Source: Trichinella spiralis
Lineage: Eukaryota
NCBI RefSeq assembly: GCF_000181795.1
Contig: NW_003526944.1
Span: 5,362,913 to 5,415,934, forward strand
Length of the DNA: 53,022 bases
Direction: 5' to 3'
Part shown: piece by piece, positions 1-47,081 of the stretch
How the letters are laid out: every line of letters starts with the position of its first letter
Position numbering within the stretch: the first letter of the stretch is position 1
Notes under the pieces: generated by a model
What the model saw: only the letters and a program-made list of their open reading frames with translations
What the model was told of the DNA's origin: nothing
Database searches by the model: none
Translations under genes and position numbers: made by a program

Positions 1-119
1 ATTAATTTTTTGATATGTGATTTCTTCTCTCATATGTTTCTAATAATTATCAACAGTAAATATCATGAGCAATAATATTTTGCTTTAATTATGAATATGA
101 AAATTATTTCACTCCACTT

Positions 120-350
120 GGCAGTGGAAACGTCCGCTTGTTCGTATTCCACTGGTGGTTGACTTGTTGGTTGGTGCGCTCTTACAAGGTGTACCGAACG
201 TTGCCAAGATCACGTGTATGCATTGTCCCCAATGCATACTTTCTGAAATTTGTTAAGCAACTGAATATCTCCCGCTTGAAAATCGAGGGATATTTCCCGC
301 CACAGATCAGGCAGATGGCTCACTAGTGTTTCATCACTTTGATCAATTTT
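120..350 (+). ncRNA. Candidate small ncRNA gene, family copy 1 (type B)
   Basis: TATA variant TATGAA at 90 (-30); 5' hairpin CAGTGGAA/TTCCACTG; second hairpin GGTGCGCT-CTTACAA-GGTGTACC; internal hairpin GTATGCATTG/CAATGCATAC; T10 run at 347-356. Confidence 0.55.
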
Positions 351-1062
351 TTTTTTATTTTGCATCAACAAAGAGATTATGTAAATTACATTTTTATGGT
401 CTGGTAAATTTTCTTTGTCAAAAGGAGAAGCCAGAGTCTTTAGATTTTTGTGAAAAGCTTTTCGATATAAATTCCATTTATGTGGGACATTTTTGAATTT
501 TCAAATCTGAAATTCAGACATTCGAGGGCGTGTTTTGTCTGGGTCATTTTGTTGTTGTGGCGTTCAGCGAGACAGCGCTTTTAAATTGTCCTCATTGGGT
601 GAATTTAATAATGCTTCTCAATTCTTCTTTCAAAGCATTTGAAATTATTCTATTCCAATAATGCGATGCATACGCCGGATTATCCGTTCATTGCACGTGA
701 ATTTTTATTGTTTATATTGCATCAGCATTCCATTGGAATTCATAGTCAAAAATAATTTCCAATGCTATTTTCTAGCGCTCCATTATGCAAATAAGGGTCG
801 ATTGAAAATTGTCTTATCATCATTAATGGTGCGCAGGTATGTTCGATTTAGGTGGCAACTGGTAGCGTCGTAAAAAGTTCTCTGAATTTATTCACTGCGT
901 TTAGTAACTAATGAACTCGGTATTTTTATTGTTGTAAATAATACATTTTTCTGAAAGCTACTTGAAACTCTCTATATATAATCTTTATGCTAACGTTCAT
1001 TAAGACAAGCAGAACAAGTGAAGATAAGAAGAATATGCGGTTCCGCCGTGGGTCCCCCATTC

Positions 1063-1172
1063 TGTAAGTCTGGGCTTGGGATACTTCAAAAGAGTGATGT
1101 TATCCCATAGTTTAATTTAGTTAACGACAAACCTGCATAACTGAGTTTTGAATTATTGCAGTACTTGGTCAT
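1063..1172 (+). other. Recurrent covarying hairpin module ('module D')
   Basis: Inner stem TGGGATACTTC...TATCCCA inside outer stem TGTAAGT/ACCTGCA. Homologues at about 7260, 11728, 12633, 47789, 50762, 51911 and 52815, and a remnant on the minus strand near 17925. Confidence 0.6.
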
Positions 1173-3533
1173 TCACGCAGCAAAATTTATGTATCCAACT
1201 TTTCATTTTCGTTCATTTTCTAATTTTTGATTTCCTTTTTTCACATTTTACATTTAGTTTTGTTTTCAATACTTTCCAAAGTAGATTGTTTTCATTTTAA
1301 TTTTTCAAACCCATTCATTCAAACTTGACTTGTTCCAATCTATGTTGAGCAACACTGAGGGCTTGTCTGCTATATTAGGTCCCAAAAGGTGCATATAAAT
1401 GGGCAGCAATTTATTCAGCTAACACCTATTTTGCAACATCTCAAATGGAAAATGCAGAACAGCTAATATCATAAATTAATAATAAAAGGCAATCGTTTTA
1501 TTTTTATGAAACGTACGAATTTAAATTATATTAAAATTCATTTTTTGGCAAATATTTGTTTATCAAAAATAATCTTTACTTCATTTGATTGTTTTTCTTT
1601 TGTTTCAGTGTTTTAAGAAAACAGTCATTCATAAATTGAAAGAATTTATAGGAATCACAGTCTTAAATTGTTCAAAATGCTAGAATGGTCAACATCCATT
1701 CATTTGATTTATTTCTTTCGTTACATCATCCACATCATTACGTTGCTATTTTATGTTTGCATATGTGCATCATCAATTACAAACTGTGCAAAACTTTACC
1801 ACAGTAATTATTACATTATTCGTAAACAATAAATATCATTGAATTGCTGAAAAAAAGTCAAATTAGATTATGTATTATGCATATATTAAAAGTTCAGGCT
1901 TGTGGTGAGCTATAGCTGCAATGTAAACGAACTTCAACTTCTTTACCAGAATTTTCATGCAAATTTTTGATCGTCGACTGGACGTTAGTTTAATAATCAT
2001 AATCATCAGAAACTTTTCAATTATATGCAGTTGAAGGTTGAAATTATTAACATTTCAATTTTTTCATTTTCTGCAGTTATCCTGGTGTAACTGTAGAATA
2101 CGTTCAATTTTTCAATTTACACTTTACACTTGCAAATGGCGTTGAATTTCCATGTGAACTCAACTGCTAGCATCACCAAGCCGAGTGATTTCTATTATGC
2201 ATGTAAGAAAAATCATTGTTTTCTATACCATAAGTTATTTAACTTTATTATTACTTAATATTAATTTTTTATTCTACATCATCAAAGACTTTTTCTCCGA
2301 ATAATTTTGTTTGTCAGAATGCGCAGCCATATACTTTTTATTTTTTGCAATGTTTTATTTATATAGGTCGTTTTTGAAATTTGAAATTCAAGTTAAGACA
2401 TGCGGAGGCGTGTTTTGGCTAAGGCAATGTTTTTGTTATGGCGTATTTTTGTCAGATTGTTTATATTTTGACGTAATTTCAAATTTCAAGGTCATTTTTG
2501 AATTTTCAAATAAATGCCATTGATTGTTTAATTTGTCACTCAGTCTGAATTGCTTCTTCAAATTATTACTTTTTCTCTCTTCTTACAACAAGCCAGCATT
2601 TAATATAAAATTATTATGCATTTTATTTCTTGTATTTATATTATTTTTTAATATTTAAAATATATTTCGTAATAAAGATGAAATTAGTGTTTCCGCAATG
2701 AGAATTGCTTTTACGTTTGGCAGTGCTACAATCAAATTTTCTTCTAAACAGAGTGTATCAATGAAAAATATGCACTAGTGATATTTATCAGCAGAAATAA
2801 ATCAAATAAAAATTTGCATGCTAAGTCGTTCGCTTTACTGACTTATTGGAAGTAATTTTAGTTTGAGACTGTCCGTGGAGGGAAGCACAGCGTTTCGATT
2901 GGCAAATTGACTGAAGAGCAACGTTGAACGCCAAACGCTAGATTTACTTTCTATTCATTCTTATTTTTTGGAATAATTTCTGAAAAATAATTTTTCAGTC
3001 AAAACCAAACAGCATGAACATCAACGATGAGAAGATGATGCATTTTGCGGTAAGTGGCAGTTTTTTCACTTTTATGTCATAATCACTTAACAATGCAATT
3101 GAGAATCGATATTGAGCATAATTTTTCAATATATTCTCCATGAATTCTCTATATGAAATGAAAGCTGATTTAATAAACGTCAAATTTCCTAATAATTAAG
3201 TTCGATTAAATTCACCCCGTACGCACTGTTTATCTATTATTAGAATGTGGTCTTTTGAAAATCATCACTTCACTAGCTAACAAACATGCACGTTCAATTT
3301 TCCGTAAGATGTTGCAGTTTTATTATTTTCACACTTTTATTTATAAAAAAGGTTTTATCAAAAACAAAACTGTGCTTATATGATATTAATCATTTCAATA
3401 TATATAAACGGTAAGTATTTAAATAAAAATATAATAAAATTCTAAACAAACATAATGTTTAAAATAAAAAAATGAATGGCAATAATAATTTGTATACTTC
3501 ATTATAAATATAAAAAAAAGTTTTATTCCACTT

Positions 3534-3718
3534 GGCGATGGAGACGTCCGCTCGTTCGTAGTCCACTGTGGTTGATGCGGTGATTCTTGTACCTTCATCA
3601 GTAATTGAAGAATCAAACAGCTCGAGCTTCTCCGCCTATCTATCCGTCTATCCGTAGTCAAAAATTAACCTAAAGAATACAAAGTAATGGAGGAAAGCAA
3701 GCAGCCCCTCACCGTTTT
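3534..3718 (+). ncRNA. Candidate small ncRNA gene, copy 2 (type A)
   Basis: TATAAA at 3503 (-31); divergent 5' hairpin; long 3' stem CGGTGA/TCACCG and CCTTCAT/ATGGAGG; ends at TTTT 3715-3718 followed by ACAACTTTTT. Confidence 0.5.
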
Positions 3719-45419: not shown

Positions 45420-45543
45420 AGCGCTGGCGACGTCCGTTACATCAGAAGCGAAGTGGATAAAGCAGAACAAAAAAATACTCATGCAACTACTTGAATTCTG
45501 GAAGTAGAGTTCAAATGCAGCCTCCCTACGCATTACAACTTTT
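45420..45543 (+). pseudogene. Degenerate copy 10 of the ncRNA family (type A)
   Basis: TATAAA at 45390 (-30); remnant AGCGCTGGCGACGTCCG; hairpin TTGAATTCT/AGAGTTCAA; type-A tail TTACAACTTTTCAAA. Confidence 0.45.
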
Positions 45544-45774
45544 CAAACAGAATACATATAATAAATAGCAAAAATCACATATTAATTATAAAATGGAATG
45601 TACCTATTTTGATGCTGCAGATAAACTTAAATATCCATAGAAAAATTAATTCTTTCATAGATATTTCTTTTTTAATATATTGTATTCAAACAAATTTATT
45701 AAAAATCAATGATAAAAGCAAGAACAATAATATTTTGTTCTAATTATAAATATGAAAATTATTTCATAAAATTC

Positions 45775-45900
45775 GGCAGTGGAAACGTCCGCTTGTTCGT
45801 ATTCCACTGATGGTTGATATAGTGGTTTGTGCACTCTTACAAAGTGAACAAACTGGCTGGCACTCCAGAATTAGCATATGATGGAATGAATACTCTTTTT
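45775..45900 (+). ncRNA. Candidate small ncRNA gene, copy 11 (type B)
   Basis: TATAAA at 45745 (-30); consensus 5' hairpin; GTTTGTGCACT-CTTACAA-AGTGAACAAAC hairpin; T5 at 45896-45900. Confidence 0.6.
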
Positions 45901-46845
45901 ATTGATTTATGTGGCAAGTAGTAGCCATATGAAGCATTCTCTGACTTTATTTACGGCCCTCAGTAACTAATAAAGTCCGTTTTAATTGCTGAAAACTATT
46001 CTCATTTTTCTAATTGTTACATTTTTTCAAAATGCTGTATTTTAATTTTGCAAATAATAATCTTTTAATTAAGAAGCAATTAAAGTGATTCAATTTAAGC
46101 GGGATGGTTCTAGATAAATTTTACTTGGTAATTTGAGTGCTAAGATATTGGAATGGTGTTTCCATTATTTTTTCCGCAATTTCTCGAACGTTAAACACTA
46201 AAACACGGTACGGATATGTTTGCAATAGTTGTATGATCCTTTCTGATAGATTCAAGTGATTTTTGTAAGGAAAAAATGTTCTCTAAAAATATTGAAATTT
46301 TGTGGGATTTTCTGTTTTGTGAAAAGCTGCGAAAAGCCTTTTCAGCCGAAGCAAAGCCCATGCAGAACATTATCCAAAACTGCTTTTTATTAATAAAGTT
46401 TGCTCTTCTGTTCCAATGCTCATCATTTATATCAAAGGAAAAAAAAGATAATGTTGTAACTTCTTGTTGACTTTTACATACACGCTTTATTCATTTAATA
46501 TAAATCTGTTATGATTTACTTCATTCAACACCTTTTAATGATATGAAATCAATGCCAAGATCCCAATCATCTAGTGACAATGTCTTTCGATCAAAATGCG
46601 ATCACTCCCCGTTTTTACAACTTTTCAAATAGAATTCATCCAAAAAATAGCAAAGAAAATCATATACATAAATAATGAAATATTTTTATTTTCATGTTGC
46701 GAGTAAATTTAAATTTTCATTATCAAATTAATTTTTTGATACGTGATTTCTTCTTTCATATGTTTCTAATAATTATCAACAGTAAATATCATGAGCAATA
46801 ATATTTTGCTTTAATTGTGAATATGAAAATTATTTCACTCCACTT

Positions 46846-47081
46846 GGCAGTGGAAACGTCCGCATGTTCGTATTCCACTGGTGGTTGATTTGATGGTTGG
46901 TGCACTCTTACAAGGTGTACTGAACGTTGCAGCGAGCATGTTTATGAATTGCCATCGATGCATATCTTCCGAATTTTTGAAAGCAGTTGAATGTCTCTCG
47001 CTTGAAAATCGAGGGATATTTCCTGCCACATTTCATGCAGATGCCTCACTCCTATTTTATCACCTTGATCAAATTTTTTTT
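46846..47081 (+). ncRNA. Candidate small ncRNA gene, copy 12 (type B; paralogue of copy 1)
   Basis: Degenerate TATA (TGTGAA) at 46816; intact 5' and CTTACAA hairpins; AATGTCTCTCG/CGAGGGATATT stem; T5 at 46974 and T8 at 47074. Confidence 0.5.

What the first reader, a model, noticed from the sequence alone, without database searches (positions are those of the whole stretch)
90..47081. Multi-copy family of TATA-driven small structured RNA genes with a constant 5' domain and variable 3' domain
Seen: 12 copies start at 120, 3534, 3955, 8565, 9099, 9868, 45420, 45775, 46846 (plus) and 19005, 20624, 21806 (minus). In 11 of 12, TATAAA (TATGAA or TGTGAA in two) begins 30 nt (once 31) upstream of the first purine, although the spacer sequence varies. 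The head GGCAGTGGAAACGTCCGCTTGTTCGTATTCCACTG folds as CAGTGGAA-ACG/CGT-A-TTCCACTG, and copy 8565 has a compensatory A-T to G-C pair. After a conserved GTGGTTGA linker, the 3' domains are largely unalignable yet carry their own stems, and T4-T10 runs follow about 100-235 nt from the start. Established: an upstream TATA near -30, purine start and oligo-T end is the architecture of U6/7SK/Y-type Pol III genes. Inference: this is an expanded ncRNA family with a constant protein-binding handle and a diversified domain that could act as guide, decoy or small-RNA precursor. I do not recognise it as tRNA, 5S, U6, 7SL, Y/sbRNA, SmY or SL RNA.
Basis: partly seen in the sequence, partly recalled or inferred. 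Interest (0 to 1): 0.88.

Follow-up and report, generated by a model that had tools for sequence, protein, structure and literature searches.

The report
Trichinella constant-leader, hypervariable RNA gene family
In the muscle parasite Trichinella, a repeated gene family starts its RNAs with the same two predicted hairpins followed by a rapidly changing segment; these RNAs are likely long non-coding transcripts rather than short polymerase III RNAs, and they may carry variable messages whose target is untested.

Summary
The repeat is real. The window is Trichinella. Ten of the 12 copies are intact; 9099 and 45420 are decayed. TATA at -30/-31 holds in 11 of 12. Stranded RNA reads are sense, and their ends pile up 7 nt inside the proposed start at two copies. 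Rfam finds nothing. The polymerase III reading is weak: T-runs occur at chance frequency, are not conserved in position, and RNA contigs read through them. The heads sit upstream of co-oriented, GT-AG-spliced, very abundant exons; no read linking head to those exons was seen. Head and downstream exon occur across the genus (11 and 12 taxa), with no coding signal in the head. Best reading: a genus-specific, likely polymerase II long non-coding RNA family with a constant structured leader and a variable cassette, comparable to aphid Ya and Echinococcus EgBRep transcripts. Function is untested.

The parts
90..95 (+). TATA-like box of copy 120 (variant hexamer)
120..201 (+). Constant leader, copy 120: hairpin 1 (+3..+35), G/U-rich linker, hairpin 2 (+50..+80)
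200..351 (+). Hypervariable segment of copy 120 (33 of 152 differences from its duplicate 46846)
349..563 (+). AT-rich conserved module that begins with the T-run and follows most heads and some other exons; likely intronic
768..1235 (+). Downstream exon-B module and last-exon hairpin module of the copy-120 unit
3503..3616 (+). Copy 3534: TATA at -31, partly decayed leader (one stem mismatch, 1-nt deletion), first member of a tandem pair
3925..4036 (+). Copy 3955: TATA and intact leader
8535..8636 (+). Copy 8565: TATA, hairpin 1 with compensatory pair, different sequence in place of hairpin 2; 13 read ends at 8572
8630..8752 (+). Variable segment of copy 8565; alternative forms with other letters here exist in a DNA run and an RNA run
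8696..8766 (+).
   Evidence: sequence
9099..9184 (+). Decayed copy 9099 (no TATA at -30, hairpin 1 broken); lies inside read-through RNA from the 8565-type head
9838..9946 (+). Copy 9868: TATA, intact hairpin 1, hairpin 2 broken
10567..12807 (+). Chain of downstream exon modules A (10567-10754), B (11270-11470), C (11624-11692), B (12144-12294) and last exon with 21-nt repeat and hairpin (12484-12807); strongly transcribed, C to last exon spliced GT-AG
18924..19035 (-). Copy 19005: TATA and intact leader; hairpin 2 fully paired with compensatory changes
17169..18846 (-). Co-oriented downstream modules behind copy 19005
20543..20654 (-). Copy 20624: TATA and intact leader
21725..21836 (-). Copy 21806: TATA, leader with altered first 4 nt
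45390..45436 (+). Decayed copy 45420: TATA and first ~17 nt only; no RNA depth in 4 of 4 runs
45745..46015 (+). Copy 45775: TATA, intact leader, 5 read ends at 45782; its variable segment runs directly into the 3' half of an exon-B module
46816..47077 (+). Copy 46846: TATA-like box, intact leader, hypervariable segment; RNA contigs cross the T8 at 47074
48823..50726 (+). Spliced exon modules F (48823-48930), A (49584-49772), B (50301-50501), C (50658-50726)
52666..52989 (+). Last-exon module with 21-nt tandem repeat and hairpin; annotated as small hypothetical proteins in 12 Trichinella taxa

Best explanation
Each intact copy is a TATA-driven transcription start whose RNA begins with two predicted hairpins and a hypervariable segment, and these RNAs are likely polymerase II long non-coding transcripts that would carry a constant protein-binding handle in front of a variable payload. 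Shown: start position, sense strand, read-through of T-runs at two copies, covariation in hairpin 2, absence of a coding signal in the leader, excess divergence behind hairpin 2, presence across the genus, and abundant spliced exons downstream on the same strand. Inferred: that polymerase II makes them; that most heads are first exons spliced to those downstream exons; that the cap-proximal hairpin (about -14 kcal/mol) hinders ribosome loading (recalled principle) and binds a protein; that the variable segment is swapped by gene conversion among the many copies and kept diverse by selection; and that it acts by base pairing or as a source of small RNAs, plausibly at the host interface. I put about 0.7 on the anatomy (long, non-coding, polymerase II) and about 0.3 on the payload function.
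For: Stranded run X9: depth almost all on one mate orientation, matching + strand RNA and the GT-AG orientation of joints; depth rises from 0.95 to 21.9 at head 8565 and from 0 at heads 45775 and 46846; 13 ends at 8572 (depth 35) and 5 at 45782 (depth 20), both 7 nt inside the proposed start. Read-through: contig 8711-8909 with 0 differences crosses four runs of T5-T6; a 1059-nt contig joins an 8565-type head to 8752-9629 across twelve runs of T5-T8; contigs 46969-47125 (1 difference) and 47107-47279 cross T5 and T8; these runs have zero depth in neighbouring stretches, so they are not plain DNA. Hairpin 2 in 7 copies: 88% of cells paired, 3 of 11 pairs changed on both sides, 4 on one side through G-U; whole structure 93.5% paired, 0 of 500 shuffles as high, slid controls 30-47%. 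In 38 head stretches of 30 public gene models, residues read from stem codons are 97-100% constant (one 84%, K/R) while loop codons are 34-92%. pN/pS about 1 in the only stop-free sense frame of the leader, and in all frames of the variable segment; no shared ATG. Variable segment: 33 of 152 differences versus 8 of 199 upstream (P=4e-7) and 20 of 1750 downstream; same peak in pair 19005/21806. A T9/T. murrelli gene model differs almost wholly in the 8565-type segment yet matches the adjoining decayed copy 9099 at 56 of 60 residues (counted by eye). Patches of 100% identity beside 85-90% in another duplicate point to conversion. All modules are co-oriented with their nearest head, also in the minus-strand cluster.
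Against: No displayed joint links a head to a downstream exon (10 and 31 joints were hidden). Downstream exons are far deeper than heads (X9: 343.6 versus 21.9), so other first exons may feed them. Most laid reads are 90-95% alike (529 of 647; 810 of 1504) and so come from paralogues or other strains. X1, X2, X10 and X13 are only guessed to be RNA. The structure was drawn from the same sequences that were counted; pairs changed on both sides did not exceed shuffles in the 7-copy set (173 of 500), and hairpin 1 is almost invariant (one double change). The gene-model stretches were selected for likeness to the head. No cap, poly(A) or inhibitor data. The last exon shows pN/pS 0.49 in one frame (5 copies, 54 nt), so part of the family may code. 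Conversion alone, without selection, can explain the variable segment.
Confidence: 0.5

Rival explanations
1. Short polymerase III RNAs from TATA-type external promoters, ending at the first T-run, with the longer RNAs being minor read-through.
For: TATA at -30 and purine start; compact two-hairpin 5' structure; G+C stays at 0.35-0.47 through the variable part and mostly falls after it; X9 depth falls from 21.9 to 7.1 to 1.3 behind head 8565 and to 0 after 46023 behind head 45775.
Against: T-runs at chance level and not conserved in position; contigs cross T5-T8 runs; no pile of 3' ends was listed; no conserved G/C-containing upstream element beyond -50 (identity 0.36-0.49); the depth drop is also expected because reads of other copies stop matching in the variable segment.
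Confidence: 0.17
2. A patchwork of segmentally duplicated, transcribed repeats with no RNA-level job: the conserved head is mainly a promoter-proximal element, and the variable segment is a by-product of gene conversion between old copies.
For: The locus is a mosaic of duplicated modules with conversion-like patches; at least 2 of 12 copies are dead and 2 more damaged; substitutions in the variable segment show no frame bias or clustering.
Against: Hairpin 2 keeps pairing through double changes and G-U pairs, which is an RNA-level signature; the head is conserved into the non-encapsulated species; divergence peaks at the same place in two independent pairs and spares the decayed neighbour.
Confidence: 0.18
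3. A family of small secreted peptides: the leader encodes a conserved signal-like stretch (started at a non-AUG codon or by an upstream spliced exon) and the variable segment encodes a hypervariable mature peptide.
For: One sense frame is stop-free through the leader in 9 of 9 copies and reads hydrophobic; many public gene models splice into the head at its CAG and some are labelled secreted; the 120/46846 variable segments differ without indels.
Against: No shared ATG; pN/pS 0.98-1.18 in that frame; stops follow at 24-45 codons in 6 of 9 intact copies; lack of indels is not significant (P=0.25); RNA starts at the head instead of splicing in; the upstream exons in the gene models differ from model to model.
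Confidence: 0.12
4. The head is the end of a non-autonomous mobile element (SINE, MITE or Helitron).
For: Multi-copy, contains a palindrome, locus is a mosaic of exon-like pieces.
Against: No B box in 12 of 12, no tRNA; homology runs on about 250 nt upstream of the start, so copies spread as DNA segments with their promoter; no inverted partner of the head at the other end of a unit.
Confidence: 0.03

Closest known systems
Aphid Ya lncRNA family (PMC7293609; passages read)
   Same: Lineage-restricted, tandemly repeated, spliced transcripts of a parasite-like feeder, low coding potential with small ORFs, missed or mis-modelled by annotation pipelines.
   Different: Ya genes are 85-99% alike with a fixed three-exon plan and a shared 38-aa ORF; no constant-hairpin plus hypervariable layout is described in the passages read. 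Ya was shown to enter the host; nothing like that is shown here. Sequence homology was not tested.
Echinococcus EgBRep-associated long non-coding transcripts (PMC3510090; passages read)
   Same: Very abundant, repeat-associated, capped and partly spliced transcripts of a helminth, with conserved ends and a more variable central tract.
   Different: There the central tract is about 90% alike; here the segment behind the leader is unalignable between most copies. No TATA or hairpin leader is described in the passages read. Different phylum; homology not tested.
Nematode sbRNA / Y RNA (PMC4450293; passages read)
   Same: Multi-copy, conserved stem with a GUG-CAC element, variable unalignable region.
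   Different: sbRNAs pair 5' end with 3' end, carry a fixed UUAUC loop motif and end in poly(U); here the stems are local, the motif is absent at a fixed place, and RNA reads through the T-runs.
HYP effectors of potato cyst nematodes (10.1101/2023.10.16.561705; abstract and outline read)
   Same: Constant flanks around a hypervariable domain in a parasitic nematode, with possible allelic variation.
   Different: HYPs are protein-coding and vary by rearranged motifs; here the variation is by substitution or replacement, with no coding signal.
U6/7SK-type polymerase III genes (recalled)
   Same: TATA near -30 and purine start.
   Different: No conserved terminator, no Rfam match, read-through RNA, spliced exons downstream.

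Membership tests
Type-3 polymerase III genes (U6/7SK/Y-like; features recalled) | TATA near -30 and purine start | tested here: met
   11 of 12; read ends pile 7 nt inside the start at 2 copies
Type-3 polymerase III genes (U6/7SK/Y-like; features recalled) | Transcript ends at first oligo-T | tested here: not met
   Contigs cross T5-T8 at copies 8565 and 46846; short isoforms could be missed; 6 of 12 starts untested
Type-3 polymerase III genes (U6/7SK/Y-like; features recalled) | Proximal sequence element shared with the organism's snRNA genes | tested here: inconclusive
   Identity 0.36-0.62 upstream of -30, AT-rich; no genome was held to compare with U6
Type-3 polymerase III genes (U6/7SK/Y-like; features recalled) | Polymerase III occupancy or inhibitor sensitivity | not testable with these tools
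   needs bench work
sbRNA / Y RNA | 5' terminus pairs with 3' end before the U tail | tested here: not met
   2 of 12 predicted folds, one of them the dead copy 45420
sbRNA / Y RNA | UUA(U/C)C motif at the 5' side of the loop | tested here: not met
   found in 4 of 12 within 300 nt, at scattered places
sbRNA / Y RNA | GUG-CAC in a stem | tested here: met
   present in hairpin 1, but in a local stem
sbRNA / Y RNA | Rfam model match | tested here: not met
Spliced-leader RNA | GT donor after a short exon with an Sm site 20-50 nt downstream (T. spiralis setting in PMC7986045) | tested here: not met
   Sm-like motif absent in 5 of 12 within 300 nt, and at +126 to +279 in the other 7
tRNA-derived SINE | Internal A and B boxes; flanks unrelated between copies | tested here: not met
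   B box 0 of 12; tRNA 0; upstream flanks homologous
Multi-copy parasite lncRNA family (Ya-like, EgBRep-like) | Tandem multi-copy, lineage-restricted | tested here: met
   21 of 30 head-bearing models were named, all Trichinella, 11 taxa; 106 of 107 last-exon hits named, all Trichinella; motif absent from metagenome and viral contigs; other nematode genomes could not be searched as DNA
Multi-copy parasite lncRNA family (Ya-like, EgBRep-like) | Capped, spliced, polyadenylated long transcript | tested here: inconclusive
   read-through and downstream GT-AG splicing seen; head-to-exon joint, cap and tail not seen
Multi-copy parasite lncRNA family (Ya-like, EgBRep-like) | No conserved coding frame | tested here: inconclusive
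   met for leader and variable segment; last exon shows pN/pS 0.49 in one frame on a small sample and three different frames among public models
Multi-copy parasite lncRNA family (Ya-like, EgBRep-like) | Transfer into the host and effect there (Ya) | not testable with these tools
   needs infected-tissue fractionation
Secreted peptide family with conserved signal and hypervariable mature part | Shared start codon and purifying selection on the signal | tested here: not met
HYP-type allelic hypervariation | Many alleles at one locus | tested here: inconclusive
   DNA run X3: flank contig depth 45.8 beside two forms at 18.9 and 26.9, and a third form at 47.3; suggestive only

The most novel reading that the evidence does not exclude
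Trichinella keeps a genus-wide arsenal of handle-and-cassette RNAs: a constant two-hairpin leader loads a carrier protein, while the cassette behind it is diversified between copies, alleles and species and is delivered, whole or as small RNAs, into the muscle cell the larva lives in, an RNA counterpart of hypervariable effector genes.
Probability: 0.15. Interest if true: 0.9.

Novelty: new variant of a known kind. Interest (0 to 1): 0.62.

Why it matters
How Trichinella larvae reprogram a muscle fibre is a long-standing open question, and larvae release small RNAs outside vesicles (PMC7445429, abstract start and passages). An abundant, genus-wide, structured RNA family with a hypervariable segment is a concrete candidate that protein-centred annotation has broken into hundreds of conflicting hypothetical proteins, some mislabelled (for example as RAD50). 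Even if the function is modest, correcting these gene models matters, and the constant leader gives a single primer or probe for the whole family. No description was found in ten searches of the paper library, one of which looked for five 15-nt strings from the family and found 0 papers; subscription journals and supplements were not covered.

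Tried and rejected
Rfam: 0 hits at gathering score over the window; at relaxed E-values 3 hits in 1-22500 and 3 in 44800-53022, none on a head. 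No tRNA. No whole genome held, so no genome-wide copy count, no U6 promoter comparison and no target search. The run search listed no holder on record as RNA; the RNA evidence comes from laying runs. Degenerate head motif: 0 matches in metagenome and viral contigs. Pfam: nothing significant on 4 and 9 translations. Antisense targets of the variable segments inside the window: none beyond module homology. A signal-peptide reading looked attractive by eye but failed pN/pS. One search counted 10 copies, including three whose hairpin 2 is broken or non-homologous; it was repeated on 7 copies, dropping 9868, 8565 and 3534; 9099 and 45420 were never in the alignments. The last-exon pN/pS still held duplicates and was redone on 5 distinct copies. 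Resemblances to U1, RNase P/MRP, vault RNA and a SECIS element were considered from memory and dropped because Rfam found none and key motifs are missing. Earlier scan notes: nothing near, nothing by sequence, five unrelated notes by words. Supplements of PMC7445429, which might list small RNAs from these hairpins, could not be read. SML-3/4/5 secreted families (PMC2680962 passages, PMC7673540 abstract) were read as possible identities; nothing tied them to this locus, but their sequences were not compared.

Full report
Organism. An ORF at 40718-41602 is 97% identical to a Trichinella nativa protein, the only hit, and the 8565 copy translates like a T. spiralis gene model. The window is therefore Trichinella. 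No whole genome was held.

The observation. The 35-nt head matches 9 of the 12 listed starts within 3 mismatches and never in 100 shuffles. A two-hairpin covariance model built from 7 copies finds 10 of 12 at E<=2e-9, 9099 at 0.002 and 45420 not at all, and no further sense copy. A TATA-like hexamer starts at -30 or -31 in 11 of 12. Across 8 intact copies identity is 0.86 and 0.81 over -30..-11, 0.58 over -10..-1, 0.88-0.98 over +1..+40, 0.65-0.74 over +41..+70 and about 0.25 beyond +80. The upstream 250 nt are homologous between copies, so the spacing is partly inherited, but the peak at the box points to promoter constraint. Rfam and ARAGORN find nothing on the heads.

Structure. Hairpin 1 (+3..+35) is predicted in 9 of the 12 copies folded and is nearly invariant, with one double change in 8565. 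In the 7 copies that keep it, 88% of cells pair, 3 of 11 pairs change on both sides and 4 more shift through G-U; the whole structure is 93.5% paired, above all 500 shuffles and far above slid controls, although the count of doubly changed pairs is not above shuffles and the structure was drawn from these same sequences. An independent view comes from 30 public gene models that happen to translate the head: in 38 stretches, selected for likeness to the head, stem codons are 97-100% constant (one 84%) and loop codons 34-92%. Twenty-one of the 30 were named; all are Trichinella, from 11 taxa including T. pseudospiralis, T. papuae and T. zimbabwensis.

Transcription. Six of the 12 starts lay in the two stretches I could lay reads on. 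In the stranded raw-read run X9 nearly all depth is in the orientation that means + strand RNA; depth steps up at heads 8565, 45775 and 46846; and read ends pile at 8572 (13, depth 35) and 45782 (5, depth 20), each 7 nt inside the proposed G, as expected if library making trims 5' ends (the trimming is recalled). Copy 45420 had no depth in any of 4 runs. Most laid reads are only 90-95% alike (529 of 647; 810 of 1504), so much of the signal belongs to paralogues or other strains.

The terminators fail. A T4 lies 95-250 nt downstream of 80% of random positions; the first T4 ranges from +100 to +227 and differs between near-identical copies. Contigs of runs guessed to be RNA, which are empty in neighbouring stretches, cross T5-T8 runs: 8711-8909 with no difference, a 1059-nt contig from an 8565-type head to 9629, and 46969-47125 with one difference. 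The T-run of 8565 ends in a canonical nematode acceptor that a public model uses for a 71-nt intron. Short products could still have been lost by size selection.

Context. Heads are the front modules of a mosaic of duplicated blocks, always co-oriented, including the minus-strand cluster. Downstream blocks are exons: joints 48930 to 49584, about 50501 to 50658 and 11692 to 12484 are GT-AG. The last exon, with a 21-nt repeat and a hairpin, is very abundant (X9 depth 343.6; contig depth 115840 in X1) and much deeper than single-copy contigs in the DNA run X3 (about 6000 summed versus 19-55), as are the heads (325-415), so the family is larger than the window (summed depth is no copy number). Its ORF finds 107 small hypothetical proteins, 106 named and all Trichinella, 12 taxa, which read the hairpin part in three different frames. 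One frame has pN/pS 0.49 on 5 copies, so a coding remnant or micropeptide is possible there. No displayed joint links a head to these exons; 10 and 31 joints were hidden.

The variable segment. Copies 120 and 46846 lie in a recent duplication that differs at 8 of 199 positions upstream and in the leader and 20 of 1750 downstream, but at 33 of 152 directly behind hairpin 2 (P=4e-7 and 1e-24). The pair 19005/21806 peaks at the same place. A T9/T. murrelli model is unrecognisable in the 8565-type segment (3 of 22 residues, by eye) yet 56 of 60 identical over the decayed neighbour 9099; orthology rests on adjacency in one model. The DNA run holds several forms of the 8565 segment between shared flanks, with depths that would fit two alleles plus a paralogue. 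The substitutions show no frame bias, no clustering and no significant lack of indels. Patches of complete identity in another duplicate show that conversion operates here.

Coding. The one stop-free sense frame through the leader reads hydrophobic, but has no shared ATG and pN/pS near 1; Pfam finds nothing.

Reading. The most likely picture is a family of polymerase II long non-coding transcripts with a constant structured leader and a variable cassette (0.5 overall; anatomy about 0.7, payload function about 0.3). Rivals: functionless transcribed mosaic (0.18), short polymerase III RNAs (0.17), secreted peptides (0.12), mobile-element end (0.03). It works most like aphid Ya (PMC7293609, passages) and Echinococcus EgBRep transcripts (PMC3510090, passages); it fails the tests for sbRNA/Y RNA (PMC4450293, passages), SL RNA (PMC7986045, passages) and SINEs; the constant-variable layout recalls HYP effectors (10.1101/2023.10.16.561705, abstract and outline) without their coding. 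Ten paper searches found no description; subscription papers and unread supplements, notably small-RNA tables of PMC7445429, may bear on this.

Verdict. Real, transcribed, structured and apparently undescribed; not the short polymerase III family proposed, but with a hypervariable segment that makes it more than an ordinary repeat. New variant of a known kind; interest 0.62.

Noticed in passing
window 4561-6029: DNA transposon with 15-nt terminal inverted repeats and an 8-nt target-site duplication (hAT-like by recalled criteria), inserted behind copy 3955 and spanning an assembly gap.
   Followed up: partly
window 12484-12807 and 52666-52989: Last exon: variation in the 21-nt repeat and hairpin looks more synonymous in the frame ending GILRKGEVIP than in the annotated ATG frame, yet that frame has a stop at the same place near the exon start in most window copies; pN/pS 0.49 on a small sample. 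Public models label some as RAD50, probably from coiled-coil-like repeats.
   Followed up: partly
window 23762-28073 and 28414-32709: A 4.3-kb direct duplication at 97% identity with G+C-rich stretches; two ORFs tested had no Pfam match. Possibly a mobile element or an assembly duplicate.
   Followed up: partly
window 40718-41605 (+): Single-exon-like 295-aa ORF, 97% to a T. nativa protein labelled GPCR-like.
   Followed up: partly
window 35235-39004 (+): Multi-exon protein gene whose translated pieces resemble an ARF exchange factor of the PSD/EFA6 type (recalled; Pfam found nothing on the two pieces tested).
   Followed up: no
window 45897-46015: The variable segment of copy 45775 is fused directly to the 3' half of an exon-B module, showing recombination between modules.
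   Followed up: partly
window 3710-3764, 8746-8800, 19218-19261, 45517-45590, 46603-46665: A shared block with a pyrimidine-rich stretch, T-run and poly(A)-signal-like hexamer opens the upstream module of several copies and closes the copy before it; may be a 3' end or an acceptor.
   Followed up: partly
window 44449-44588: Short 39-42-nt tandem repeat just upstream of the third cluster.
   Followed up: no
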